Origin: Escherichia coli
Lineage (GTDB): Bacteria > Pseudomonadota > Gammaproteobacteria > Enterobacterales > Enterobacteriaceae
Assembly: GCF_001677475.2 (NCBI RefSeq)
Contig: NZ_CP015229.1
Strand: one strand, 5' to 3'
Length of the DNA: 64,000 nucleotides
This document shows, one piece after another, positions 799 through 42,631 of the stretch (within the stretch, counting starts at the first letter, position 1; each line of letters starts with the position of its first letter). The position numbers were made by a program, and so were the translations under genes. Below the pieces are notes generated by a model. That model did not search any database, was not told where the DNA came from, and saw nothing but the letters and a program-made list of their open reading frames with translations.

Positions 799-2907
799 AT
801 GAATTCTCTGTTTGCCAGTACGGCCCGTGGGCTGGAAGAGCTGTTAAAAACTGAACTGGAAAACCTGGGGGCCGTTGAATGCCAGGTGGTTCAGGGTGGG
901 GTCCATTTCAAGGGCGACACACGGCTTGTTTACCAGAGCCTGATGTGGAGCCGCCTGGCCTCGCGTATTATGTTGCCGCTGGGCGAGTGTAAGGTTTACA
1001 GCGATTTAGACCTCTATCTCGGTGTTCAGGCGATCAACTGGACAGAGATGTTTAATCCTGGCGCGACCTTCGCTGTCCACTTCAGTGGTTTGAATGACAC
1101 CATCCGCAACAGTCAGTACGGTGCGATGAAAGTGAAAGACGCGATTGTCGATGCTTTCACGCGGAAAAATCTGCCGCGTCCAAATGTTGATCGCGATGCG
1201 CCGGATATCCGCGTTAACGTCTGGCTGCATAAAGAAACTGCCAGTATCGCCCTTGATCTCAGTGGTGATGGTTTACATCTGCGTGGCTATCGCGATCGTG
1301 CTGGTATTGCGCCGATCAAAGAAACCCTGGCAGCCGCGATTGTTATGCGATCCGGCTGGCAGCCAGGAACACCGCTGCTCGATCCGATGTGTGGTTCCGG
1401 TACGTTGCTGATTGAAGCGGCGATGCTGGCGACCGATCGCGCACCAGGCTTGCACCGTGGGCGTTGGGGCTTTAGCGGCTGGGCGCAGCATGATGAAGCT
1501 ATCTGGCAGGAAGTGAAAGCGGAAGCGCAAACTCGCGCCCGCAAAGGCCTGGCTGAGTATAGCTCTCATTTTTACGGTTCGGACAGCGACGCACGGGTGA
1601 TTCAACGTGCGCGCACTAACGCCCGTCTTGCGGGGATTGGTGAACTGATCACCTTTGAGGTGAAAGATGTCGCGCAACTGACCAATCCGCTGCCGAAAGG
1701 GCCGTACGGTACAGTGTTGAGTAACCCGCCATACGGTGAACGTCTGGACAGCGAACCGGCGCTGATTGCGCTGCATAGTCTGCTGGGCCGAATCATGAAA
1801 AACCAGTTCGGTGGCTGGAATCTCTCTTTGTTTAGTGCCTCGCCGGATCTGCTCAGCTGCCTGCAGCTGCGTGCAGACAAACAGTACAAGGCGAAAAACG
1901 GCCCGCTGGACTGCGTACAGAAAAATTACCACGTTGCCGAAAGCACACCAGACAGCAAACCGGCAATGGTAGCGGAAGACTACGCCAACCGCCTGCGTAA
2001 GAACCTCAAAAAATTCGAGAAGTGGGCTCGCCAGGAAGGGATTGAATGTTACCGCCTGTATGACGCCGATCTGCCGGAATATAATGTTGCCGTTGACCGT
2101 TATGCCGACTGGGTGGTGGTGCAGGAGTATGCGCCGCCAAAAACTATTGATGCGCACAAAGCGCGTCAGCGTCTGTTCGATATTATCGCTGCAACCATTT
2201 CGGTACTGGGGATTGCGCCAAACAAACTGGTACTGAAAACCCGCGAACGCCAGAAGGGCAAAAACCAGTACCAGAAACTGGGCGAGAAGGGCGAGTTTCT
2301 TGAAGTTACCGAATATAACGCTCACTTGTGGGTGAACCTGACGGATTATCTCGATACTGGTCTGTTCCTCGATCACCGTATCGCCCGCCGTATGCTCGGT
2401 CAGATGAGCAAAGGCAAAGATTTCCTCAACCTGTTCTCTTATACCGGCAGTGCCACCGTGCATGCGGGATTAGGCGGTGCACGCAGCACCACCACCGTGG
2501 ATATGTCACGTACTTATCTGGAGTGGGCAGAACGCAACCTGCGTCTGAATGGCCTAACCGGGCGTGCGCATCGCCTGATTCAGGCCGATTGCCTGGCGTG
2601 GCTGCGTGAGGCAAATGAACAGTTCGATCTGATCTTTATCGATCCGCCAACCTTCTCTAACTCAAAACGAATGGAAGATGCGTTTGATGTTCAGCGCGAT
2701 CATCTGGCGCTGATGAAAGATTTGAAACGTCTGCTGCGTGCAGGCGGGACGATCATGTTCTCGAACAACAAACGTGGCTTCCGTATGGATCTCGACGGCC
2801 TGGCAAAACTGGGACTGAAAGCACAAGAAATTACGCAAAAAACGCTCTCCCAGGATTTCGCCCGTAACCGCCAGATCCACAACTGCTGGCTGATTACCGC
2901 AGCCTGA
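799..2907 (+). CDS. rlmL: 23S rRNA m2G2445/m7G2069 methyltransferase RlmL (YcbY)
   Basis: 702-aa ORF starting [25 protein letters not shown], with THUMP and two SAM-MTase regions (NPPYGERL motif). Synteny matches K-12. Confidence 0.95.
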
Positions 2908-23725: not shown

Positions 23726-24385
23726 TTAATCGCGGCTGGCGAAGCCCAGAATGCTCAGCAGGCTGACGAAGATGTTGTACAGCGAAACATACAGGCTAAC
23801 CGTGGCACGAATATAGTTCGTTTCACCGCCATGAATGATGTTGCTGGTTTCAAACAAAATAGCGCCAGAGGAGATCAGAATGAAGACCGCGCTGATCGCC
23901 AGATGCAGAGCAGGCAGTTGCAGGAAGATATTCGCAACCATACCAATCAGCACCACCACAATACCCGCCATCAGCATACCGCCGAGGAACGACATATCTT
24001 TGCGGGTGGTCAGCACATATGCAGAGCAGCAGAAGAACACTAACGCCGTTCCGCCCAGTGCCATCGCGATTACGTCACCCATTCCGGCAGACAGATAGGT
24101 ATTCAGAATTGGTCCGAGGATATAACCCAGAAAACCGGTAAAGGCGAATGCGGAGATAATCCCGGTCGGCTTATTCGCCGTTTTATAGGTCAGGAACATC
24201 AAACCATACATACCCACCAGCGTCAGAATCAGACCCGGAGATGGCAGCATCAGCACCGTACTGGCAGTTGCGGTAATCGCCGAAAAGGCCAGCGTCAGGC
24301 TCAGCAGAAAATAGGTATTACGCAGCACCTTATGGGTGCTAAGCAGTGATGTACGGTCATGTGAAGAACTAACAATACGATCCAT
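23726..24385 (-). CDS. yccA: BAX-inhibitor family membrane protein YccA
   Basis: 219 aa, polytopic. Confidence 0.93.
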
Positions 24386-24550
24386 TGAGTCACTCTCTAT
24401 GACAGATGTAATTAATTAAGCAGCATAATGATAATGCGTAAGGGCACCCAGAAGTTTTACCCATCTTTACGCATTTGATCTGGAACAGGTTTAACAGCGG
24501 ATTATCAGGTCATTAAGCAAATATAACGCCCTGAGAATTTCGACAGGCAA

Positions 24551-24582
24551 AAGAAAAAGGGGTTAGCATTTAGCTAACCCCT
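24551..24582 (-). terminator. terminator downstream of the serT 3' end
   Basis: AGGGGTTAGC/GCTAACCCCT hairpin followed by a T-run on the minus strand. Confidence 0.75.
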
Positions 24583-24591
24583 TATCTTATT

Positions 24592-24651
24592 TGGCGGAAG
24601 CGCAGAGATTCGAACTCTGGAACCCTTTCGGGTCGCCGGTTTTCAAGACCG
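24592..24651 (-). pseudogene. serT: 3' 60 nt of tRNA-Ser(UGA) serT; prophage att junction
   Basis: TGGCGGAAGCGCAGAGATTCGAACTCTGGAACCCTTTCGGGTCGCCGGTTTTCAAGACCG is the reverse complement of the CCA end, T arm, long variable arm and anticodon region of serT. The match stops at 24651, where AT-rich phage DNA begins. Confidence 0.85.
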
Positions 24652-24792
24652 AAGAAAAATAAAGAAAAATCAGTATAATACGCAAAATAGCCGAAAAGTT
24701 AATCAGACTTAACACCAAGAAAAATCAAGATGTTAGGGAGTTATTCAGAGTTAATATACCAGGTCTTTTTGCCAGAAAATTTTCTGGATTGT

Positions 24793-25812
24793 CTACTTAC
24801 TGACCACAAGCGGCAAATCCAGTGTTGGCGTGATTTTGGTTTTACGATCGTAAATCAACACCTGATTTTCTGTTTTGTGTCCACTGAAAATTTGTTTGTC
24901 GCGACTGCTGCCTTCGTAATCTGAAATCCCTTTGGCTTTTATGTCATGGAAGTTGCACCCAAACGGAACGCCGGCTTTTTGCTCGGCTGCACGTTTAGCC
25001 TGATTCCACCAGTTGTTCAGCGTCTTGGCTATTACCTTCCCGCCTTTGGTTGTGTTGATCACATACTCGCATGTGCCGGAAGATACATTTCGGGCTAACT
25101 GGATCGCCGTACGTAATCGCGGAGACCATTCCTTGATTTGTTTAGTGCCAGTCTTGTTTTGCTCAATGTAAATCCCTTTATCCATAATATCCTGCCATTT
25201 CAGCTCGAGTACATCACCGAGCCTTGCCGCACAAAGATAGGATATCTCCATTGCAATACGTAACTGTGGAATTGCTTCCGCATATATTGCTGCATACTGT
25301 TCATCGGTGATGTAAACAGTACGGGCTTTAAGTGTGAATTTTCTGACACCTTTGCATGGATTATTTTTCACATACCCACGCTCATATCCCCATCCGTATA
25401 CACGGCTCAGACTTGCCAGTTCATGGTTTGCCTGGGTCTTGCTCTCAAGTCCTCGCTTATCCATGAAAATTCTTACCTGTTCAATTTTTACATTATCAGC
25501 AAGCACTTTTCCGAATACTGCCAACAATGCCCTTTGATGTTGCCGATAATCTTTTTGGGTTCGGGGGGCCAGTTCTGTAAATGCAGGGGAGTCCATAAAC
25601 ATGTGCCATAATTTAGCTACTGTCATTATGTTGTGGAGTTTTGCTTTTTCCAGCTCATAATTTTGCCAGACTTTAGCTACGCTGGTTTCCCGCACTCTTC
25701 CGAGCCCTATAGTTCTTGTGCTTCCTTCGGGTTTCCATACGTAACTGTAACCGTTCGATCTAACACGCGGTGGTAGTGCATTATCTTTTTTGTTTTTTCT
25801 TGGTCTTCCCAT
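24793..25812 (-). CDS. int: prophage tyrosine integrase
   Basis: 339 aa, adjacent to the att junction. The C-terminal catalytic region shows ARLGDV...HDIKAKG...GHKTENQVLIYDR (R..H..H..Y pattern). Confidence 0.88.
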   Translation of the reverse strand: MGRPRKNKKDNALPPRVRSNGYSYVWKPEGSTRTIGLGRVRETSVAKVWQNYELEKAKLHNIMTVAKLWHMFMDSPAFTELAPRTQKDYRQHQRALLAVFGKVLADNVKIEQVRIFMDKRGLESKTQANHELASLSRVYGWGYERGYVKNNPCKGVRKFTLKARTVYITDEQYAAIYAEAIPQLRIAMEISYLCAARLGDVLELKWQDIMDKGIYIEQNKTGTKQIKEWSPRLRTAIQLARNVSSGTCEYVINTTKGGKVIAKTLNNWWNQAKRAAEQKAGVPFGCNFHDIKAKGISDYEGSSRDKQIFSGHKTENQVLIYDRKTKITPTLDLPLVVSK

Positions 25813-26032
25813 TGTTCAGCGCCTCAAAATCGGGTTCAGCGGAAACCAGCTCAGGTGCTTTTGGCATCGTTGTCAGTCCGTGTGGAATATCCCTGCGAAG
25901 AACTATTGGTTCGTTTTTAGGACCGATTACAAATGGGATGCCGTGCAGCCTTAACTGGTGTTGCTGTTTTGTGTATCGCTCGTATTTCGTGATCTCTTGA
26001 ATCTCTGCTGGCGATAGAGTTAATTCGTACAT
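25781..26032 (-). CDS. xis: excisionase-like protein
   Basis: 83 aa, overlapping the int start by 32 nt. Position and size are typical of Xis. Confidence 0.6.
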   Translation of the reverse strand: MYELTLSPAEIQEITKYERYTKQQHQLRLHGIPFVIGPKNEPIVLRRDIPHGLTTMPKAPELVSAEPDFEALNNGKTKKKQKR

Positions 26033-26098
26033 GTGGTCACGTGCCTTACAGCATGACCGCCGCCAATATAATTCGGAGACGGCGATCAGGGGTGAACA

Positions 26099-28549
26099 TT
26101 AAAAATCAACCGGATTCGGGATCAGTTTTTGCCAGATTGCTGAAACGTATTTTGCCTGGTAACGAGCGTCATCAAGTGCATTATGGCGCTCACCTTCGAA
26201 TGGGATAGCTGTTCTGGCATCGAAGTCTATGGCTTTCCCCAGCTCAACGATTGTGCGTACATCGCGATCGTTGCAGTAGCGCCAAGGGCAGGGGATACCC
26301 TGTCGTTCGTATGAACGGCGTAAAATCACGTTGTCGAAGTTGGCCCCATTACCCCAGACCTGAACAAAAAATTCACCGGAGTTTTCGTCGATAAATTCCC
26401 GCAATTGCAGCAGTGCATCATCTAACGGGATTTCATCGGTCAGAATGGCAGATTGCGCCTCGCGTGATTGCTTAAGCCACCATTTTATGGTGTCACGATT
26501 AATGACTCCGCCAGCAGTTTCCAGATCGATGGTCTTACTAAATTCCGGCCCCATATCTCCGGTTTGCGGATCGAAAAATATTGCACCTATTGAGATAATC
26601 GGGGCATCGGGATTTTTTCCCATGGTTTCAAGGTCGATCATAAGATGGTCACATGACCTGCTTGTGGATGTGATATTGTGATAACCGTTCACCTTAATTA
26701 AGGGATCTGTTGCTTCGCCAGTTTCATTATCGCTGGCGTGATGCTGATTGCCTCCAGTGTTCTCCTTGTGTGGATGTTCAGCGCCTTCCATTTCCTCCGG
26801 ATCATTCTCCTGAGCTTCAACCTGATTCTCTTCATCGAATGTTTCCTGGTATGTTGCGTTTCCCATGACCGCGCCACAGTCAGGACAGTTGCCGCCGCTG
26901 CTCTGACCGCAGACGGTGCAGACTTTTTCCGGTTCCTGTTGCACTACTGGTTCGGATTGTTTCGTTTCTGGTTCGTTTTGTTGCGCATTTGGGCTGTTTT
27001 GTTCCGCTTTCTGGTCGTTCTGTGCCGTTTCTTGCTGGTTCTGGTTCACAGAATCGCGGGTTTCAATCCCCTTCACCCATTTCGGATCATTCGGGTCGCT
27101 AATCCCTGCAACAAATTCACCACGTGATGCAGCGAGCAACTGACTGGCGTCAGGCAGGCTGATATTGGCTGCCTGCATAATTTTGTTTACTTCGTCAGCG
27201 GTAACTTTTACCTGATTAACCGGATCTATCTGTGCCTGAGTATCCAGCGATTGCGTGTCCTGGCGAAGTTCAGTTGTATCCGGCTCCATTGCTTCAGTCG
27301 TTGCCTGTTCATCTGCCATTGCGTCAGACGGTTGTGATTTTTCATCATTATTTTTTTCTTCTTCTGTTTCGCGTTTAGCAGCCAGTTCGCGGTTAACTTC
27401 TTCCTGGATATCTTTTTCCGGTGTATGTCGTGCAGCAGCGAGAGTTTCTTCGGTAGGGTTCTCGTGATCAGTCTCCGTTAAGTGGGCGTTGATATACTCC
27501 TGAAGGCGTCCCGGGTAGAGATAAAGTTCAGGGTGAGCACTTCGGATAAGTGCAAAAATAGCGGCACGGGAATAATCCAGAATACCAGGGGTTGCGCGAA
27601 GTGCTGCGGACCATTCTTTGAACGGACTTTCTTTCTTCCGGACGACTTCTTTTGCGCGACGATAAACGCTGCCCGGAATTTCATAAATATTAAAATCCAT
27701 CGGAAGTGTGGCCGCTGCAATCTCCACATCCAGCGTATCGAAGGTGTGTACTAAATTCGGATTGCGATCGGTTTTGTTCCCGCCGCCAGCATTAGCACCG
27801 GAAGCCGTGCGGATGATGCGTGAAACACGATTCCCCTTCATCCACTCTTTTGTAAGCAGACCGCGATCGGTGTAGTCAGCGCCCAGGTATGCTTCGAAAA
27901 AAGCAGTCATCAGTCCCAGGTCTGAATTGCCAGGATTAGGGAAAACTTTGTCAGTGTCACGAACCAGTTTGTGGAGATCGCGAATTTCCAGCGGTTCGAG
28001 TTGCGCTGCTTTATTTGAGATGGCCAGCGCGGTAACGGCGGGAAGTTTTTCATCCTGTGCGTTATGTAATGCGCGCAGTTCGCCCCGCGAAACGTGAGTG
28101 ATCGGTTTTTCGCTGCCGTGCTGAGCAAGCCAGCGAATGGGAAGTATCTGGCCAGAAACCGGGAGTAGCATATTCTCCTCAATATCAGTCATGTCTTCGC
28201 CGTTGACGTTGGTATTGTCAGTGCTGGCTGGTTTATCCTGAACAGAGGGCGCGATAAATACCATTGTGATACCATCTTCCCCGCCTTTTTCGTATCGGTT
28301 GCAGAATTCGGTATCAAACACACCTTCCGGAGGCAGGTCATTCACAACGGGTAAATGGACGCGGACGGGTTTTTTAAAGTCGTCTTCATCATAATCGTTG
28401 TCATCCATTGCGGTAATACAACGGGAGATGGCAACAGATAATTTTTTTGCTGTGGTCCAGTAAAAACCACCTTTAATTCCCAGGCGTTTTCTGACTTTGT
28501 CATTTTTTGCTTCGCAATATAGCGCAAATTCTTCTTTTTCAGTGCTCAT
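26099..28549 (-). CDS. large early protein with C-terminal DEDDh 3'-5' exonuclease domain
   Basis: 816 aa. The C-terminus has DLETMG, NGANFD and HNALDDA motifs (Exo I/II/III). The central region is an acidic/Q-rich linker plus a CTVCG..CPDCG zinc ribbon. Confidence 0.8.
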   Translation of the reverse strand: MSTEKEEFALYCEAKNDKVRKRLGIKGGFYWTTAKKLSVAISRCITAMDDNDYDEDDFKKPVRVHLPVVNDLPPEGVFDTEFCNRYEKGGEDGITMVFIAPSVQDKPASTDNTNVNGEDMTDIEENMLLPVSGQILPIRWLAQHGSEKPITHVSRGELRALHNAQDEKLPAVTALAISNKAAQLEPLEIRDLHKLVRDTDKVFPNPGNSDLGLMTAFFEAYLGADYTDRGLLTKEWMKGNRVSRIIRTASGANAGGGNKTDRNPNLVHTFDTLDVEIAAATLPMDFNIYEIPGSVYRRAKEVVRKKESPFKEWSAALRATPGILDYSRAAIFALIRSAHPELYLYPGRLQEYINAHLTETDHENPTEETLAAARHTPEKDIQEEVNRELAAKRETEEEKNNDEKSQPSDAMADEQATTEAMEPDTTELRQDTQSLDTQAQIDPVNQVKVTADEVNKIMQAANISLPDASQLLAASRGEFVAGISDPNDPKWVKGIETRDSVNQNQQETAQNDQKAEQNSPNAQQNEPETKQSEPVVQQEPEKVCTVCGQSSGGNCPDCGAVMGNATYQETFDEENQVEAQENDPEEMEGAEHPHKENTGGNQHHASDNETGEATDPLIKVNGYHNITSTSRSCDHLMIDLETMGKNPDAPIISIGAIFFDPQTGDMGPEFSKTIDLETAGGVINRDTIKWWLKQSREAQSAILTDEIPLDDALLQLREFIDENSGEFFVQVWGNGANFDNVILRRSYERQGIPCPWRYCNDRDVRTIVELGKAIDFDARTAIPFEGERHNALDDARYQAKYVSAIWQKLIPNPVDF

Positions 28550-28639
28550 TGATAAACCTCATTACAGATTTAAGGGTGAACAAATCCCTGCCATTGCTGG
28601 CATATAAAAATGAAACCGGATATTTATTACTGTGCTGTT

Positions 28640-28831
28640 TTAAAGTCCTGCCGGGACTTCGTTATTATCCATGCGAATAACTTTATCGACCGGATAACAG
28701 TTACCGGGAATTTTTTGTTCTGCTGCGGCAGCCATGCATTCTTTCATTGAACCGTATAAGCCAGTCACCAGCTCAAGAGATTCGCCGGAAACAAGATAAA
28801 CTGTCAGAACGAGTGCAAATGTTGTATTCAT
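28640..28831 (-). CDS. small secreted/membrane protein (DUF1482-like)
   Basis: 63 aa with a hydrophobic N-terminus, translationally coupled to the upstream gene. Confidence 0.55.
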   Translation of the reverse strand: MNTTFALVLTVYLVSGESLELVTGLYGSMKECMAAAAEQKIPGNCYPVDKVIRMDNNEVPAGL

Positions 28832-29016
28832 TGTTTATATCCTTTTTGCCGCAGGTCCAGACGAGCCAGCATTGAAGGAATGCATACTTCATTTAACAGG
28901 TCCTGCTCGAGTGTTCTCTGCTTAATGGCGTCTTCAATAAATGTTTTGTCTCCGGTGATAACGCCAATTTCGAAACGAAGTTCAGACGTACTGGCATTGC
29001 ATGATAACTTTTCCAT
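28828..29016 (-). CDS. dicB: DicB-like cell-division inhibitor
   Basis: 62 aa. FEIGV..F.EDAI..R...LLN..CI.SMLARL.L..KG matches my recollection of Qin DicB. It lies downstream of a DicF-like RNA, as in Qin. Confidence 0.75.
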   Translation of the reverse strand: MEKLSCNASTSELRFEIGVITGDKTFIEDAIKQRTLEQDLLNEVCIPSMLARLDLRQKGYKQ

Positions 29017-29190
29017 TATCGCGTCCTCAACAATGAATTTTGTGATGCGGTGCCTGGTGCCTCCAGGTGACGTTAACCAGTTAACAATTAACGCCGGAGT
29101 ATTTCACGTTACGCCAGTAAAGGACCGCTTTACTGTTTTAACTGTTCCGCGTGCGCTTAGCCGCATTCACCGCATCACAAAATTCACTTT

Positions 29191-29249
29191 AAAAAGGGCG
29201 GACATCAGCCAGCAATGAAAACTGATGCCGCCAAAGGTACCAATCAACA
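29191..29249 (-). ncRNA. dicF: DicF-like sRNA
   Basis: The minus strand reads ...CCTTTGGCGGCATCAGTTTTCATTGCTGGCTGATGTCCGCCCTTTTT. The core TTTGGCGG(C/T)ATCAGTTTT and the GGCGG...CCGCC-T5 terminator match E. coli DicF. The 5' end is approximate. Confidence 0.75.
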
Positions 29250-29573
29250 TGGAGTGTTGCGGCGGGGTTGTCACTCAGGCGTATGGTCAACCTGACAACC
29301 CGGTGTCACCAGTGGGGGTAAGGAAAACCCCGCCATACTTACCGCCGCGCCATTTCGCGGAGTGCCACAACCGGAAGCGCACGGTCGACGAAAATTTAAC
29401 GACAGGCTATCTATGAACCATAAACCTCGCCGTGCGCTTTCGCGTTATGCCCTGACTTTTCAGGGAAATATCCTTTCAGTAAACTGTCAGTGCCGGATGT
29501 TCACCCGTGTCCGGCGCACGCACTCCACCTCACCCGTGGAGAACCCCTTAATTACCAACCCTCAGGAGAGTGA

Positions 29574-29807
29574 ATGTTAAAATCAACTCTTATTGCTAAA
29601 TGCCTTTATCAAAATCGCATGGTAAGCAGCATTTCAATAGGCGAGTCTGCAGTTAAAAGTATTTTCGAAGAGTTCTTTCCCGGGCATGATTTTAATAAAT
29701 GGAATACCAAATTACCGCCAGCAGTTTCAACGCGTATTCTGAAAGCAACTGAAAGAGCAAGTACAATTCGCGTTAACTATTTCATTAAAGATTTGTGGGA
29801 TCTTTGA
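29574..29807 (+). CDS. hypothetical AT-rich protein (opposite to early-left operon)
   Basis: 77 aa with a strong RBS, AGGAGAGTGAATG. It converges on and overlaps the next gene by 23 nt. Confidence 0.45.
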   Translation: MLKSTLIAKCLYQNRMVSSISIGESAVKSIFEEFFPGHDFNKWNTKLPPAVSTRILKATERASTIRVNYFIKDLWDL

Positions 29808-30204
29808 TATCCACAGAGCCTAAAGTATGTGCATATGGATGTGCTATTGTGCGCCCTCGCAGATTTGCATCATTTTCTAAATTCACTGAACGAAACAGGG
29901 CATCAACAAGGCTCTGTACAATGCAAAGGCAATCGAAGACTGTCGCTGTTTCTGTTTTGATTGATGAAAGAACATGGCCATTCACGCAAACAGAAATTAC
30001 CCGTTCATTAACATCGCTTTCCTGCTTTTGATTATCAGAACTATATAGCCCAGAAAAAGCATTGCGCACATTATGAACCATATTATCGATGGTTTCTTTT
30101 TCTACGGTACTCAGGTCAAGAGTCGCCAGTTGAGAACGAACTATATTCGCTGCCATTTCCTGGAATGGTACTGGTAAATCTTTAAATTCCATCGTCAACC
30201 TCAT
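29785..30204 (-). CDS. hypothetical early-left protein
   Basis: 139-aa ORF. A likely alternative start is MEFKDL at 30192. Confidence 0.55.
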   Translation of the reverse strand: MRLTMEFKDLPVPFQEMAANIVRSQLATLDLSTVEKETIDNMVHNVRNAFSGLYSSDNQKQESDVNERVISVCVNGHVLSSIKTETATVFDCLCIVQSLVDALFRSVNLENDANLRGRTIAHPYAHTLGSVDIKDPTNL

Positions 30205-30207
30205 CAG

Positions 30208-30462
30208 TCAGTGGTTTTCAATCTCTCGTGAAACGTTTAATGCCGCGCTTTTTGCCAGAGTGGTAATATCCAGCTCCGCTGACGCCAGTTCTTTAGAGAG
30301 GTGCTCTTTGTTGTTAGCAGCCTGTTTCAGGTCATTAATGGCGCGTATCTTCCCGAACATCCATTCGTAAATTTCATCATCGGTATAGCCTGGTGCGATG
30401 ATGGTGGGTTCTGGTTTCTGCATGTCAGCTCCTTGTGGTTCGCATTGCCTGCTTTTAACCAC
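30208..30462 (-). CDS. hypothetical early-left protein
   Basis: 84-aa ORF with an alternative start MQKPEP at 30423. Confidence 0.5.
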   Translation of the reverse strand: MVKSRQCEPQGADMQKPEPTIIAPGYTDDEIYEWMFGKIRAINDLKQAANNKEHLSKELASAELDITTLAKSAALNVSREIENH

Positions 30463-30515
30463 GTCAGGCGAGGTGGTATCCTCTGAGGGGTCTGTTACTC
30501 GAGAGGAAATTGGTT

Positions 30516-30716
30516 ATGAATACAATCAAGTTTTCTTGCCCAGAATGTGGTGGCGAAGTCTTTGACACATCCTTTAAGCCGCAGGGCTCTGACAGTTTCG
30601 CGGGAGCCATCTGCAAAAATTGTGGTCACCTTGTAACTGAAGATGAGTCCTCGCAGTTCGATGACGAAATCGTTGATAATATCTTCGGCGCACTCACCAG
30701 AGATTTCCTGAAGTAA
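30516..30716 (+). CDS. zinc-ribbon protein (CPECGG...CKNCGH) with acidic tail
   Basis: 66 aa with RBS GAGAGGA 8 nt upstream. It has two CxxC pairs and E. coli-like codon choice. It overlaps an antisense 118-aa ORF, so the strand assignment is uncertain. Confidence 0.45.
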   Translation: MNTIKFSCPECGGEVFDTSFKPQGSDSFAGAICKNCGHLVTEDESSQFDDEIVDNIFGALTRDFLK

Positions 30717-31033
30717 AAGCGCATGCCGTTTAGTTACCGCTCTGATCATTCTTACTTGTCCGGTAATGGCGCTGACATCAGTATAAAGCGCCATTGCTGC
30801 TTCTTTGCCGATCCCAGGATGCCTTCCATTCTGATGTTTGACTTCGCCCACTGAGAAATCCTCTGTTTCCCCTTAACGCCGGGGTAGCGGAACAAAAACC
30901 TGCTGCATAGTTAAAGTTGAACCCTGCCGTCATGTTCTTACGCCTCGGGCTGGCTACTTAACCCCTGACCACTGCCTGGTAACTCGAAGTATTGCCCTGC
31001 GTTTTGTGGGGCGGGGTGGGTTAGTAAAAATAG

Positions 31034-31061
31034 TTTATACAAAAATAAACTAAACAGTCAA
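31034..31061 (-). promoter_or_regulatory. PL-like early-left promoter with palindromic operator
   Basis: The minus strand reads TTGACT-16 nt-TATAAA. The palindrome AGTTTAT-N6-ATAAACT overlaps it. It is nearly identical in layout to the PR-like promoter at 32469. Confidence 0.6.
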
Positions 31062-31116
31062 TATGCAACTTAACTCTTTGGCGAGGATAACCCCTGTTGA
31101 GAGGGGCTTCGGGGGA

Positions 31117-31404
31117 TTAAGGTGTTACAGGGAACTGTCGGCGGGCGTGAACTACGCTAACAATTTCAATGCCTGAAATTGTCACGCGGTATAGAATTAT
31201 GTAATTGGGGTGAGCAACAATTTCACGCAAACCCGGAACTCTGTCGCTTGGCGGGTATAAATACGGATGCTCAGATAATGGCAGGACGCAAGTCCTTAAG
31301 CGTTTCCACAAACGTTCTGCCGCATCTATATCAAAACGAGCAATATAGCTAGTTATATCATCCAAGTCGGCATCTGCGCTTTCGAGCCATAAAACCGGTA
31401 ACAT
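31117..31404 (-). CDS. parE: ParE-family toxin (ParE2-like)
   Basis: 95 aa, MLPVLWLESADADLDDITSYIARFDIDAAERLW..., recognised as the ParE toxin of the O157 PaaR-PaaA-ParE system. Confidence 0.85.
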   Translation of the reverse strand: MLPVLWLESADADLDDITSYIARFDIDAAERLWKRLRTCVLPLSEHPYLYPPSDRVPGLREIVAHPNYIILYRVTISGIEIVSVVHARRQFPVTP

Positions 31405-31596
31405 TTACTGCTTGCTCCGTTCCTTGCGCATGTTAGCAAAGCGTTCAGCCATTCTGCGTTCAACTTCGTCATGTGGGATGGCTGGACGTGGATCAGCAAG
31501 GCTTGCGGCCACTTTTGCACGCAGCCATTCGTTATAACTATTTTCTTGCTCGATGGTTTCAAATTCAGAAACCATTGGTGAAAGGGCTGTGTTCAT
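31405..31596 (-). CDS. paaA: PaaA-like antitoxin
   Basis: 63 aa from MNTALSPMVSEFETIEQENSYNEWLRAKV. It abuts the parE start. Confidence 0.8.
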   Translation of the reverse strand: MNTALSPMVSEFETIEQENSYNEWLRAKVAASLADPRPAIPHDEVERRMAERFANMRKERSKQ

Positions 31597-31631
31597 GGCG
31601 AACCTCGTTTTGTAAGTGCTGGTAATTCTGC

Positions 31632-32027
31632 CTAGGTAACTTTTTGTTGTGCTGCTAGCCACCTTGCAACTATACGATCCATTGTCTCTTTTTTTTCCTT
31701 CATATCTTTAAGTATTTGCTGTTGATCTTCCTCTGGAAATGCCTCAAATGTTTGAAGTAGCTCCTTTTGCTTAGGAGATATTTTTAATATATCCTGTGTT
31801 TTGTCTTCTTTTTCTTCATTTAATGGTAAGAAAAACCAATGTTGGGGAAAACCCGTTACTTCAGATAGTTTATCTAGATTAGCTGCTGTAGGGCTTGATA
31901 TACCACAAACCCACCTTTGGACGGATTGTTGAGCAATACCAATTCTGCGCGCAAGCTCTGCTTGACTCCAGCCTTTTTCTAATAGAAGCATCTTAATTCT
32001 AAGAGCACTAATTTCGAGTACGCCCAT
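31632..32027 (-). CDS. paaR: PaaR-like XRE-HTH regulator
   Basis: 131 aa with the HTH LLEKGWSQAELARRIGIAQQSVQRW. It is the first gene of the three-gene module. Confidence 0.75.
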   Translation of the reverse strand: MGVLEISALRIKMLLLEKGWSQAELARRIGIAQQSVQRWVCGISSPTAANLDKLSEVTGFPQHWFFLPLNEEKEDKTQDILKISPKQKELLQTFEAFPEEDQQQILKDMKEKKETMDRIVARWLAAQQKVT

Positions 32028-32057
32028 CTGATATCTCTTGTTCCAGTATGTATCCCG

Positions 32058-32429
32058 TCAGGCTCGGCGACCTTGTCGCGCCAACCAACGTGCAACAAGA
32101 TCTTCCATTGCCTCTTTTTTATTTCTTAGTTCTTTTATGATCTCCTGCTGTTCATTATCAGGAAAAGCACTAAATATTTGTAGTAATTCCAATTGGTTAG
32201 GGGTTAATGCCATAGATCTTGATGACGAAGATTCTGTTGTGTCTTCAGGTTCCATATCAAGATAACCCCCAGGCATCCCATATGTTTGCTCAATACGTCT
32301 AGCTGCCTTTTCGCCAAACGTAGATTTACCGCTCATTAACTGAGATAAGTAACTTTTCTCTTTAGGCGGCAAAGTCCTGTCTTTGAACCACTCTTTGAGG
32401 CGTAAACGCCGAATCTCTTTTGTTTCCAT
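32058..32429 (-). CDS. cI-like prophage repressor (no S24 peptidase domain), paralogue of PaaR C-terminus
   Basis: 123 aa, divergent from the cro-like gene across a promoter/operator region. The C-terminal segment LTPNQLELLQIFSAFPDNEQQEIIKELRNKKEAMEDLVARWLA aligns with PaaR ISPKQKELLQTFEAFPEEDQQQILKDMKEKKETMDRIVARWLA. Confidence 0.7.
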   Translation of the reverse strand: METKEIRRLRLKEWFKDRTLPPKEKSYLSQLMSGKSTFGEKAARRIEQTYGMPGGYLDMEPEDTTESSSSRSMALTPNQLELLQIFSAFPDNEQQEIIKELRNKKEAMEDLVARWLARQGRRA

Positions 32430-32468
32430 ACATTCATTATCTTTAGTAATTGCAAAACAAGCAAATAC

Positions 32469-32496
32469 TTGACTGGTTTATTTAGTTGCGTATAAA
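32469..32496 (+). promoter_or_regulatory. PR-like promoter/operator
   Basis: TTGACT-16 nt-TATAAA with the GTTTAT...ATAAAC inverted repeat, 36 nt upstream of the cro-like ATG. Confidence 0.6.
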
Positions 32497-32531
32497 CTTT
32501 CGCTTGTTCTAAATGTGCTGAGATAAAAATT

Positions 32532-32819
32532 ATGACGCTAAAGGAATTCATCAAATCATTAAAAATTGGAGAAGCAAAAAAATTTGCGACCAACCTTGGT
32601 GTGTCTCCATCCTTCTTGTCCCAAATGGCATCTGGAACTTCACCTGTGTCTCCTGTTCGTGCGTTGATGATAGAAGCAGAAACTGGAGGACACGTTACAA
32701 GACGCGAATTGAGACCTAATGACTGGGAGCTTATATGGCCCGAATACACTGGAATCACGTCCCCTTCACGTCACAAATATGAACTTAACACCAAAAAGGC
32801 TGATGGGGTTGACTCATGA
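32532..32819 (+). CDS. Cro/YdaS-like HTH regulator
   Basis: 95 aa. LGVSPSFLSQMASG...GGHVTRRELRP is the YdaS-type pattern. It is the first gene of the rightward operon. Confidence 0.7.
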   Translation: MTLKEFIKSLKIGEAKKFATNLGVSPSFLSQMASGTSPVSPVRALMIEAETGGHVTRRELRPNDWELIWPEYTGITSPSRHKYELNTKKADGVDS

Positions 32820-33241
32820 TAATCAAGCATGAACACATCCGCATGGCGATGAATGCATGGGCGCATCCGGACGGTGAAAAAGTTCCGGCAGCTGAAATAA
32901 CCCGGGCTTATTTTGAGCTGGGTATGACGTTCCCGGAGCTATATGACGACAGGCATCCGGAAGCGCTGGCTCGTAATACCCAGAAAATTTTCCGCTGGCT
33001 GGATAAAGACACCCCTGATGCGGTTAAAAAAATTCAGGCGTTGTTACCAGCTATCGAAAAAGCAATGCCGCCTCTGCTGGTGGCCCGAATGCGCAGCCAC
33101 AGTTCAGCCTATTTTCGGGAACTGGTGGAGACGCGGGAACGACTGGTGAGAGACGCTGATGATTTTGTCGCAGTGGCGATCGCTGGTTTCAATCAGATGA
33201 ATCGTGGTGGTCCGGCGGGAAATGCCGTGGTGATGCACTAA
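32816..33241 (+). CDS. YdaT-like (CII-position) protein
   Basis: 141 aa, overlapping the stop of the cro-like gene. Size and position match Rac YdaT. Confidence 0.6.
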   Translation: MIIKHEHIRMAMNAWAHPDGEKVPAAEITRAYFELGMTFPELYDDRHPEALARNTQKIFRWLDKDTPDAVKKIQALLPAIEKAMPPLLVARMRSHSSAYFRELVETRERLVRDADDFVAVAIAGFNQMNRGGPAGNAVVMH

Positions 33242-42379: not shown

Positions 42380-42455
42380 GGCCCTTTAGCTCAGTGGTGA
42401 GAGCGAGCGACTCATAATCGCCAGGTCGCTGGTTCAAATCCAGCAAGGGCCACCA
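42380..42455 (+). tRNA. ileZ: tRNA with CAU anticodon (ileZ-type Ile2/Met-like)
   Basis: 76 nt. The acceptor is GGCCCTT/AAGGGCC, the anticodon loop is CTCATAA, the T loop is GGTTCAAATCC, and CCA is encoded. Confidence 0.85.
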
Positions 42456-42554: not shown

Positions 42555-42631
42555 GCGTTGTTAGCTCAGTCGGACAGAGCAATTGCCTTCTAAGCAATCG
42601 GTCACTGGTTCGAATCCAGTACAACGCGCCA
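42555..42631 (+). tRNA. argO: tRNA-Arg(UCU)
   Basis: 77 nt. The acceptor is GCGTTGT/ACAACGC, the anticodon loop is CTTCTAA, and CCA is encoded. Confidence 0.88.

What the first reader, a model, noticed from the sequence alone, without database searches (positions are those of the whole stretch)
29255..29560. About 300-nt ORF-free, hairpin-dense segment upstream of DicF
**Seen in sequence.**
- No credible ORF exists on either strand. The best minus-strand ORF is 20 codons.
- Structure is dense. GGCGGGGTT (29261) pairs with AACCCCGCC (29326), enclosing GGTTGTCA..AGG / CCTGACAACC.
- Further hairpins are CCGCG-CCATTT-CGCGG (29349-29364), CCCTGA-CTTT-TCAGGG (29451-29466) and GCCGGA-N12-TCCGGC (29492-29515).
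- A fifth is CTCCAC-N7-GTGGAG (29523-29541).
- In Qin this position is occupied by the small ydfA/B/C genes.

**Inference.** This may be a structured non-coding RNA. It could be a processing platform for DicF, an antitermination (put-like) element of the leftward operon, or the leader of the plus-strand 77-aa gene at 29574.
Basis: seen in the sequence. Interest (0 to 1): 0.5.

Follow-up and report, generated by a model that had tools for sequence, protein, structure and literature searches.

The report
Known leader RNA that DicF is cut from
This stretch is another copy of the untranslated spacer in the prophage dicBF operon, already studied in E. coli K-12, from which RNase III and RNase E cut the small RNA DicF; it is real and structured but essentially ordinary.

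Summary
The segment (29255-29560, functional strand minus) is 87-94% identical to the ydfC-dicF untranslated spacer of E. coli K-12 prophage Qin. It occurs in about 80% of complete E. coli genomes.

In K-12, RNase III cuts this spacer to give a 190-nt pre-DicF, and RNase E then makes the 53-nt DicF. That cut maps to about window 29377/29378.

Between this stem and DicF lies a folded leader (hairpins a-d, 29266-29360). Nine of its 25 pairs show compensatory changes, and it pairs better on the minus strand (97.0% vs 89.7%).

No ORF is conserved on either strand. There is no Rfam family and no put or nut likeness.

The leader module also occurs at the start of the phage P1/P7 ban operon and in Citrobacter, Erwinia and Salmonella-phage sequences. 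In the five representatives scanned, no DicF was detected.

The upstream third (29450-29573) is not clearly structured on the minus strand. It abuts a hot spot where opposite-strand genes are inserted.

Verdict: already known; low interest.

The parts
29366..29449 (-). Long interrupted stem of 21 pairs. Helices: 29444-29449 with 29366-29371; 29441-29442 with 29372-29373; 29430-29439 with 29375-29384; 29427-29429 with 29386-29388. The top (29391-29424) varies between homologues. Inferred RNase III substrate.
   Evidence: MFE fold, z = -3.14. Forms in all 37 distinct variants while the top is replaced. Five double-sided pair changes against the Citrobacter homologues. Homologous to the K-12 sequence that holds the mapped RNase III site.
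29377..29378 (-). Inferred RNase III cut that makes the 5' end of the 190-nt pre-DicF (uncertainty about 8 nt; stays within the 3' arm).
   Evidence: In K-12, 137 nt upstream of the DicF 5' end lies CGUCGACCGUGCG|CUUCCGG. That sequence is identical in the window. RNase III dependence of the 190-nt species: PMC10448788.
29345..29360 (-). Hairpin a of the pre-DicF leader (CCGCG AAAUGG CGCGG).
   Evidence: 96% of cells paired in 68 distinct sequences. Only wobble changes, no compensatory change.
29301..29344 (-). Stem b (29341-29344 with 29301-29304) enclosing hairpin c (29328-29332 with 29313-29317).
   Evidence: Stem b: 1 pair with a compensatory change (U-A to C-G in P7). Hairpin c: 3 pairs with compensatory changes; one pair is seen as G-C, U-A, C-G and A-U.
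29266..29300 (-). Hairpin d (GGGUUGUCAGGU ... GCCUGAGUGACAACCC).
   Evidence: 5 of its 7 outer pairs show compensatory changes, for example GGGUAACCA/UGGUUACCC in Izhakiella.
29246..29265 (-). Linker between hairpin d and DicF. Its 3' half (roughly 29246-29255) is the inferred RNase E cleavage region. Its 5' half (GCCGCAAC, 29256-29263) can pair with GUUGUGGC (29364-29371) once the long stem has been cut.
   Evidence: By homology with K-12, where RNase E makes the DicF 5' end. Closing helix: 95% paired, 3 of 8 pairs with double changes, only moderate support.
29196..29245 (-). DicF-like small RNA, with its terminator U-run at 29191-29195.
   Evidence: Rfam RF00039, 44.1 bits, E = 4e-8, below the gathering score of 48. 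Alignment with K-12 DicF.
29450..29465 (.). Hairpin H3 (CCCUGA AAAG UCAGGG). The boundary of the homology block shared by nearly all homologues falls in its loop.
   Evidence: One pair changes C-G to U-A in 4 sequences; degenerate in K-12-type copies. Homology breakpoint at query position 114.
29492..29515 (.). Hairpin H4 (GCCGGA-N12-UCCGGC). Strand of action unresolved.
   Evidence: Stem nearly invariant, loop varies. On the plus strand it extends to 10 pairs through G-U pairs.
29523..29541 (.). Hairpin H5 (CUCCAC-N7-GUGGAG). Strand of action unresolved.
   Evidence: A second family of homologues carries a different hairpin (ACACG...CGUGU) at the same place.
29561..29573 (+). Ribosome-binding region of the 77-aa plus-strand gene, at the edge of the conserved spacer.
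   Evidence: Homology with K-12 ends at 29560. Other prophages have different plus-strand genes starting at the same point behind TCAGGAGGGTGAAATG.
29017..29190 (-). Context: dicF-dicB spacer closed by a duplex of about 28 pairs. Probably a second RNase III substrate.
   Evidence: Fold z = -6.02, 0 of 200 shuffles as good. STnc100-like match, 38 bits, below the gathering score of 47.
28828..29016 (-). Context: dicB.
   Evidence: Pfam PF05358, E = 4e-37.

Best explanation
The segment is the non-coding spacer of a prophage dicBF-type early leftward operon. It works as RNA on the minus strand.

**Proposed sequence of events**
1. Transcription from the repressor-controlled leftward promoter reads through the upstream genes into the spacer. 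The promoter is probably at 31061-31032.
2. A 21-pair stem (29366-29449) forms and RNase III cuts it near 29377/29378. This separates the upstream mRNA from a pre-DicF of about 190 nt.
3. The pre-DicF carries a compact folded leader (hairpins a-d, 29266-29360) and then DicF. After the cut, the freed GUUGUGGC may pair with GCCGCAAC and close the leader.
4. RNase E cuts in the linker next to hairpin d (roughly 29246-29255) and releases mature DicF (29196-29245). DicF ends at its own terminator.

**Shown:** homology to the K-12 spacer; conservation of the stem; compensatory changes in the stem and leader; the strand; the absence of a conserved ORF.

**Taken from K-12 experiments:** the RNase III and RNase E dependence.

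**Inferred:** that the same cuts occur in this prophage; that the RNase III cut (5' monophosphate plus a short single-stranded tail) helps RNase E; and that the upstream hairpins (29450-29541) protect the 3' end of the upstream mRNA after the cut.
For: **Homology**
- The window matches K-12 W3110 Qin over 29004-29560 at 87.5% identity. The spacer alone is about 92% identical.
- 4319 of 5426 complete E. coli genomes carry the segment. The eight records listed have no annotated feature under it.

**Published experiments in K-12 (PMC10448788)**
- The 190-nt species needs RNase III and the 53-nt species needs RNase E.
- No internal promoter was found in the operon.

**Long stem**
- The position 137 nt upstream of DicF lies in the 3' arm of the long stem.
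- Stem z = -3.14.
- The stem forms in 37 of 37 variants while the apical loop is replaced.
- There are 5 double-sided pair changes against Citrobacter.

**Leader a-d**
- 97.0% of cells are paired.
- 9 of 25 pairs have compensatory changes, against 2.1 +/- 1.1 in shuffles (0 of 500 reach 9).
- Slid controls give 0-4 such pairs.

**Strand:** 97.0% paired on the minus strand against 89.7% on the plus strand.

**No conserved ORF**.
Against: - No transcript data exist for this prophage.
- The DicF copy is a variant that scores below Rfam's threshold (44.1 vs 48).
- Among E. coli-type copies the long stem shows no double-sided change. That support rests on two Citrobacter sequences aligned by hand, and the stem model did not find them.
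- The exact K-12 cut site could not be read from the held text (the figure's colour is lost). I placed it from the 190-nt length.
- The leader alignment was fitted to the tested structure, which favours it.
- The leader is not unusually stable (z = -1.00) and the upstream third not at all (z = +0.49) on the minus strand.
- What the a-d leader itself contributes is unknown. It also occurs without a detectable DicF.
Confidence: 0.8

Rival explanations
1. The upstream third (about 29450-29573) also, or instead, acts on the plus strand. It would be the promoter and 5' leader of the oppositely oriented 77-aa gene at 29574.
For: - In many homologues a plus-strand gene with a different body starts exactly at the spacer edge, behind the same ribosome-binding sequence TCAGGAGGGTGAAATG.
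- This part folds better than chance on the plus strand only: z = -2.76 against +0.49 on the minus strand.
- My own reading gives a weak candidate promoter: TTTTCA (29457-29462), 17 nt, TAAACT (29480-29485), 8 of 12 matches.
Against: - The promoter scan finds nothing in the segment on either strand.
- K-12 and most homologues keep this sequence without any plus-strand gene.
- Pair variation in H3-H5 does not decide the strand.
Confidence: 0.2
2. The a-d leader is an autonomous RNA module whose role goes beyond DicF processing. Examples would be a 5'-end stabiliser, a separately released small RNA or sponge, or an element that tunes read-through of the DicF terminator into dicB.
For: - The module occurs right after the C1-controlled ban promoter of P1 and P7.
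- It also occurs in Citrobacter, Trabulsiella, Erwinia, Izhakiella and Salmonella phage F1055. In the five of these scanned (not P7), Rfam finds no DicF at E <= 0.01.
- Many phages share only this block: query positions 203-319.
- CCCCGCC of hairpin d could in principle pair with GGCGG of the DicF terminator.
Against: - No experiment bears on it.
- The predicted lowest-energy folds keep the DicF terminator intact.
- No covariation links hairpin d to the terminator.
- The block's own folding energy is unremarkable.
Confidence: 0.15
3. The segment is a cis-acting antitermination site of the leftward operon, like HK022 put or lambda nutL.
For: - It lies in an early leftward operon just upstream of an intrinsic terminator.
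- H3 (CCCUGAAAAG...) superficially recalls lambda boxB (my recollection of the boxB sequence).
Against: - The leader model finds nothing in the 9-kb HK022 stretch expected to hold the put region, and BLAST gives only chance words.
- No boxA-like motif occurs in the segment.
- I saw no arginine-rich N-like ORF among the leftward ORFs listed (no search was run).
- The segment lies about 1.45 kb from the likely promoter.
- H3 is degenerate in K-12-type copies.
Confidence: 0.04
4. The segment encodes a small protein, for example the GTG-started VRFRLW... ORF on the minus strand or the 63-aa ORF on the plus strand.
For: - phrog_8854 matches the 31-aa minus-strand ORF, E = 5e-15.
- Some phage records annotate hypothetical proteins here.
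Against: - ORF length, start and C-terminus change between homologues through 1-nt indels.
- There is no third-codon-position excess of variation: entropies 0.30, 0.27 and 0.21.
- There is no Pfam match.
- No feature is annotated under the segment in the eight RefSeq genomes listed.
- Compensatory base-pair changes fit RNA better.
Confidence: 0.03

Closest known systems
ydfC-dicF untranslated spacer and 190-nt pre-DicF of the E. coli K-12 Qin dicBF operon (Faubladier et al. 1990, as cited in the held papers; Ragunathan et al. 2023, PMC10448788)
   Same: - Homologous sequence, about 92% identical over the spacer.
- Same position and strand directly upstream of DicF and dicB.
- Same long stem at the place of the mapped RNase III cut.
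   Different: - Here a two-gene insertion (77-aa plus-strand gene, 139-aa minus-strand gene) separates the spacer from the ydfC-like gene.
- The DicF loop and the linker just 5' of DicF differ.
- Processing has not been tested in this prophage.
Leader of the phage P1/P7 ban operon (annotated 'dicF-like region', NC_005856 68791-68892)
   Same: Hairpins a-d are shared at 75-79% identity, with compensatory pair changes. An STnc100-like element follows further downstream in both P1 and the window.
   Different: - In P1 the module starts about 36 nt after a C1-controlled promoter, by my estimate from the annotated -10 box.
- P1 has no counterpart of the 5' end of the leader model or of the long stem's 3' arm, and no Rfam DicF match.
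- tRNA genes follow it.
RNase III sites in phage lambda early and int transcripts (N leader, sib)
   Same: Long local double-stranded stems in phage leftward transcripts that RNase III cuts to change the fate of flanking RNA. This rests on my own knowledge, not on a test here.
   Different: No sequence relation was looked for. Those sites control N translation or int mRNA decay, not the release of a small RNA.
HK022 put antiterminator RNAs (PMC9378689)
   Same: A structured RNA in an early phage operon, upstream of terminators.
   Different: Put is about 70-74 nt with two stems and lies close to PL or PR. No sequence or model match was found.
Small RNAs cut from the 3' parts of mRNAs by RNase E (review PMC9438474, which lists DicF as the first such case)
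   Same: A small RNA ending at an intrinsic terminator is released from a longer mRNA by RNase E cutting beside a stem-loop.
   Different: Here an RNase III step and a conserved leader of about 130 nt come before the RNase E step.

Membership tests
dicBF-operon pre-DicF spacer (K-12 Qin type) | Sequence homology to the K-12 ydfC-dicF spacer | tested here: met
   87.5% identity over window 29004-29560 and about 92% over the spacer.
dicBF-operon pre-DicF spacer (K-12 Qin type) | Lies directly upstream of DicF and dicB on the same strand | tested here: met
   DicF-like RNA at 29196-29245 (-). DicB at 28828-29016 (-), Pfam E = 4e-37.
dicBF-operon pre-DicF spacer (K-12 Qin type) | Downstream small RNA qualifies as DicF by Rfam's own threshold | tested here: not met
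   44.1 bits against a gathering score of 48, E = 4e-8, full-length match with a different loop. It is a close variant by alignment.
dicBF-operon pre-DicF spacer (K-12 Qin type) | Double-stranded stem of about two helical turns at the position of the RNase III cut | tested here: met
   21 pairs over 29366-29449. The cut inferred at 29377/29378 lies in its 10-pair helix.
dicBF-operon pre-DicF spacer (K-12 Qin type) | [quoted passage not shown] | not testable with these tools
   Shown only for K-12 (PMC10448788).
HK022 put RNA | Sequence or structure similarity to putL or putR | tested here: not met
   No hit of model R1 in HK022 24000-33000 at E <= 0.001. BLAST gives only words of 10-14 nt. The put sites are not annotated in that record.
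HK022 put RNA | About 70 nt, two stem-loops, close to the early promoter | tested here: not met
   Here there is a long stem plus four helices over about 200 nt, about 1.45 kb from the likely promoter at 31061-31032. Put features taken from PMC9378689.
Lambda-type nut site | boxA motif followed by a boxB hairpin | tested here: not met
   No YGCTCTTWA match (up to 1 mismatch) inside 29255-29573.
Any Rfam 15 family | Covariance-model match within 29255-29560 on either strand | tested here: not met
   Only chance-level matches (E = 4.7) in the segment. DicF and STnc100 lie outside it.
Small protein gene | Open frame kept across homologues, with a coding substitution pattern | tested here: not met
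   Frames broken or shifted by indels. No third-position excess. No Pfam match. The phrog_8854 match is to a non-conserved ORF.

The most novel reading that the evidence does not exclude
The roughly 100-nt a-d leader (29266-29360) would be a mobile, self-contained structured RNA domain of enterobacterial phages.
- It sits at or near the 5' end of early transcripts: created by an RNase III cut in Qin-type prophages and, apparently, by the promoter itself in P1/P7.
- Its job would be independent of DicF, for example stabilising or marking the downstream RNA for ordered processing, or acting as a released RNA.
- It has no Rfam family.
Probability: 0.2. Interest if true: 0.55.

Novelty: already known. 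Interest (0 to 1): 0.25.

Why it matters
- DicF and DicB are toxic cell-division inhibitors, and how much of each is made depends on how the dicBF transcript is cut.
- This work places the published K-12 RNase III cut inside a conserved stem. It also gives a covariation-backed fold for the leader that precedes DicF. Neither is discussed in the 2023 K-12 paper I could read, and neither is in Rfam.
- The same leader occurs in P1/P7 and in other Enterobacterales without a detectable DicF. That hints it has a role of its own.
- For annotation, the practical point is that this common stretch (about 80% of complete E. coli genomes) should be marked as non-coding dicF precursor RNA. It should not be left blank or called as hypothetical proteins.

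Tried and rejected
- **Rfam, both strands.** Nothing in the segment at gathering threshold or at E <= 10.
- **Put-like reading.** The HK022 record has no put annotation. There was no model hit and no BLAST similarity.
- **Nut-like reading.** No boxA motif in the segment.
- **Coding readings.** Rejected on ORF inconsistency, codon-position test and Pfam. I read the phrog_8854 match as automatic calls on conserved DNA.
89.9% paired, no better than shuffles (157 of 500 reach it). Its variable column covaries with the local hairpin c partner instead.
- **RNAalifold on 67 E. coli-type copies.** No double-sided change. More distant homologues were needed.
- **Covariance model of the long stem (R2).** It did not find the Citrobacter, Erwinia or F1055 versions, and its alignment mixed both strands, so I did not use it for pair counts. 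I compared the Citrobacter arms by hand from folds instead.
- **Species-wide pattern scan.** About 95 of the 111 loci were matches in unrelated genomes, most of them G+C-rich, that showed no homology to the segment. Only about 16 loci were real homologues.
- **Promoter scans.** Nothing in the segment and nothing at the expected K-12 dicBp. I therefore could not check the paper's '813/814' numbering and placed the cut from the 190-nt length.
- **P1 genome paper.** Not held in the library.
- **Genome-wide RNase III mapping papers.** They cite DicF but give no site here.
- **tRNA-like T-arm upstream of the module in F1055, Erwinia and Izhakiella.** ARAGORN finds no tRNA.

Full report
**What is at the site**

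The window carries a lambdoid prophage whose early leftward operon runs on the minus strand.
- dicB is at 28828-29016 (Pfam DicB, E = 4e-37).
- A ydfD-like DUF1482 gene is at 28640-28831.
- A DicF-like RNA is at 29196-29245. It scores 44.1 bits with Rfam RF00039, E = 4e-8, just under the gathering score of 48.
- The finding (29255-29560) is the stretch immediately upstream of DicF on that strand.

**Check of the observation**

Three of the listed hairpins are at the stated coordinates. Two are off by 1 to 4 nt: CCGCG/CGCGG is at 29345-29360 and CCCTGA/TCAGGG is at 29450-29465.

The ORF statement is incomplete.
- The plus strand has a 63-aa ATG ORF and a 72-aa GTG ORF.
- The minus strand has a 31-aa GTG ORF.

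None of these is conserved.
- In 62 homologues the frames, starts and ends differ because of 1-nt indels.
- Variation shows no third-position excess.
- There is no Pfam match.
- phrog_8854 matches the 31-aa ORF. Because the frame is not kept, I read that family as automatic calls on conserved DNA.

Folding energy gives a mixed picture.
- The whole segment has z = -1.70 on the minus strand and -3.33 on the plus strand.
- On the minus strand, only the long stem stands out (z = -3.14). The leader has z = -1.00 and the upstream third +0.49.

**Identity**

The segment is homologous to the E. coli K-12 Qin prophage.
- W3110 matches window 29004-29560 at 87.5% identity.
- The K-12 annotation shows that the matched stretch is the gap between ydfC and dicB.
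- The Tritos phage record annotates DicF at the same place.
- The four-way alignment shows the spacer is at least as conserved as DicF itself.

Qin has the same spacer, with ydfC upstream.

In the window, homology to K-12 ends at 29560. A 77-aa plus-strand gene (29574-29807, phrog_10348) and a 139-aa minus-strand gene (phrog_1363) then separate the spacer from a ydfC-like gene (30208-30462, phrog_1744).

The segment alone is found in 4319 of 5426 complete E. coli genomes. The eight records listed have no annotated feature under it.

**What is already known**

Several papers describe the K-12 operon.
- RNase III makes the 5' end of a 190-nt DicF species and RNase E makes the 53-nt DicF.
- The 190-nt species builds up when RNase E is inactivated and disappears without RNase III.
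- No internal promoter was found (PMC10448788).

The held text loses the colour mark for the cut site, so I placed it from the length. The position 137 nt upstream of the K-12 DicF 5' end lies in CGUCGACCGUGCG|CUUCCGG. That sequence is identical in the window, at 29378|29377. Allowing for the terminator U-tail moves it by at most about 8 nt, which still keeps it in the same arm.

**The long stem**

That position lies in the 3' arm of a 21-pair interrupted stem.
- The pairings are 29444-29449 with 29366-29371, 29441-29442 with 29372-29373, 29430-29439 with 29375-29384, and 29427-29429 with 29386-29388.
- Among 67 distinct copies from viral contigs the two arms are nearly invariant. The top (29391-29424) is replaced by several unrelated sequences.
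- The stem is predicted in all 37 distinct variants.

Covariation evidence for the stem is limited.
- RNAalifold found no double-sided change among these E. coli-type copies.
- Two Citrobacter homologues keep a stem at the same place. When the 3' arms are aligned without gaps from the shared GUUGUGG, five pairs have changed on both sides.
- This comparison was done by hand, because my covariance model of the stem did not detect those copies.

**The leader between the stem and DicF**

I built a covariance model of 29250-29372 and aligned 78 matches (68 distinct). They come from:
- Qin-type prophages;
- P1 and P7;
- Salmonella phage F1055;
- Citrobacter, Trabulsiella, Erwinia and Izhakiella.

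The structure has four helices:
- hairpin a (29345-29360);
- stem b (29341-29344 with 29301-29304);
- hairpin c (29313-29332);
- hairpin d (29266-29300).

The pair counts support it.
- 97.0% of cells form standard pairs.
- 9 of 25 pairs have compensatory changes, against 2.1 +/- 1.1 in shuffles (0 of 500 reach 9).
- Slid controls give 0 to 4 such pairs.
- The support lies in c (3 pairs), d (5 pairs) and b (1 pair). Hairpin a is conserved but shows no compensatory change.

The alignment was fitted to this structure, which favours it.

Three further tests bear on the fold.
- The same pairs read on the plus strand are 89.7% paired, so the constrained RNA is the dicBF sense strand.
It is 89.9% paired, no better than shuffles, and its variable column is compensated inside hairpin c instead.
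- A helix between GUUGUGGC (freed by the cut) and GCCGCAAC just 3' of hairpin d appears in the fold of the 190-nt species. It has moderate support: 95% paired, 3 of 8 pairs with double changes, and 29 of 500 shuffles reach that.

**Mechanism**

The best-supported reading is an ordered processing cassette.
1. RNase III cuts the long stem.
2. The roughly 190-nt pre-DicF carries the folded leader.
3. RNase E cuts the linker next to hairpin d and frees DicF.

The nuclease steps are taken from K-12. Their occurrence here is inferred.

Two further ideas are also inferences:
- The 5'-monophosphate and short tail left by RNase III may favour RNase E.
- The upstream hairpins may protect the 3' end of the upstream mRNA. 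This would fit the loss of ydfA transcripts in the K-12 rnc mutant.

**Wider distribution**

- Many phages share only the leader block (query positions 203-319).
- In P1 and P7 the block follows the C1-controlled ban promoter. In P1 it overlaps the annotated 'dicF-like region', and tRNA genes lie downstream.
- In P1 and four other representatives scanned (Citrobacter braakii, Trabulsiella, Erwinia, Izhakiella, F1055), Rfam finds no DicF at E <= 0.01.
- This is why I keep an 'autonomous module' reading as the novel case.
- The window has only one copy.

**The upstream third (29450-29573)**

- It is not better folded than chance on the minus strand, but it is on the plus strand (z = -2.76).
- In many homologues a plus-strand gene with a different body begins exactly at its edge, behind the same ribosome-binding sequence.
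- No promoter passes the scan. Pair variation does not decide the strand.
- A plus-strand leader role for this part therefore stays open, but it cannot explain the segment as a whole.

**Other rivals**

- Put-like: no match in the HK022 region and a different architecture.
- Nut-like: no boxA motif.
- Any Rfam family: none.

**Verdict**

The feature is real and non-coding, and it acts as RNA on the minus strand. It is another copy of a known element whose processing role has been described in K-12. The fold models and the link to P1 add detail rather than a new kind of system.

Noticed in passing
window 29017-29190 (-): The dicF-dicB spacer folds into a duplex of about 28 pairs that closes a branched structure (z = -6.02). 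It overlaps an STnc100-like match (38 bits, below the threshold of 47). It is probably the second RNase III stem, the one that gives the 72-nt DicF in K-12. P1 has an STnc100-like element downstream of its tRNAs too (L124 2842-2961).
   Followed up: partly
window 29196-29245 (-): The DicF copy has a different loop (UUUUCAUUGCUGG) and a shorter 5' end than K-12 DicF, and it scores below Rfam's threshold. It might have a different target range.
   Followed up: no
window 29561-30204, and loci L024, L034, L039, L059: The upstream edge of the spacer is an insertion hot spot. Unrelated plus-strand genes start at the same nucleotide behind the same TCAGGAGGGTGAAATG. Here the gene is 77 aa (phrog_10348), and it overlaps the end of a convergent 139-aa gene (phrog_1363).
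   Followed up: partly
window 31032-31061 (-) and 32469-32498 (+): The same promoter-like hexamer pair, TTGACT-18-TAAACT, occurs on both strands flanking the repressor region. These are probably the leftward and rightward early promoters.
   Followed up: no
window 31632-32027 (-) and 32058-32429 (-): Two tandem repressor-like ORFs (131 and 123 aa) have very similar C-terminal halves.
   Followed up: no
window 31117-31662 (-): By its homologue in strain TUM1881, a RelE/ParE-type toxin gene and a RelB-type antitoxin gene sit between the repressor genes and the likely leftward promoter.
   Followed up: no
window 50652-50739 (+); 42380-42452 and 42555-42628 (+): A C4 antisense RNA (72.3 bits) and two tRNA genes lie elsewhere in the window.
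   Followed up: no
L197 (Shigella flexneri) 963-1574 (-): Here the a-d leader lies upstream of isrK and a C4 antisense RNA rather than DicF.
   Followed up: no
L126, L225, L235: about 60-100 nt upstream of the a-d module: A tRNA T-arm-like sequence (GGUUCAAUUCC or GGUUCGAUUCC) precedes the module in Salmonella phage F1055, Erwinia and Izhakiella. ARAGORN calls no tRNA there.
   Followed up: partly
window about 29150-29165 (-): CUAAGCGCACGCGG downstream of DicF nearly repeats the 5' arm of the long stem (GAAAGCGCACGG). It could be an alternative partner for CCGUGCGCUU.
   Followed up: no
window 29115-29135 (+): A terminator-like hairpin with a T-run on the plus strand lies inside a stretch of the dicF-dicB spacer that K-12 lacks.
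   Followed up: no
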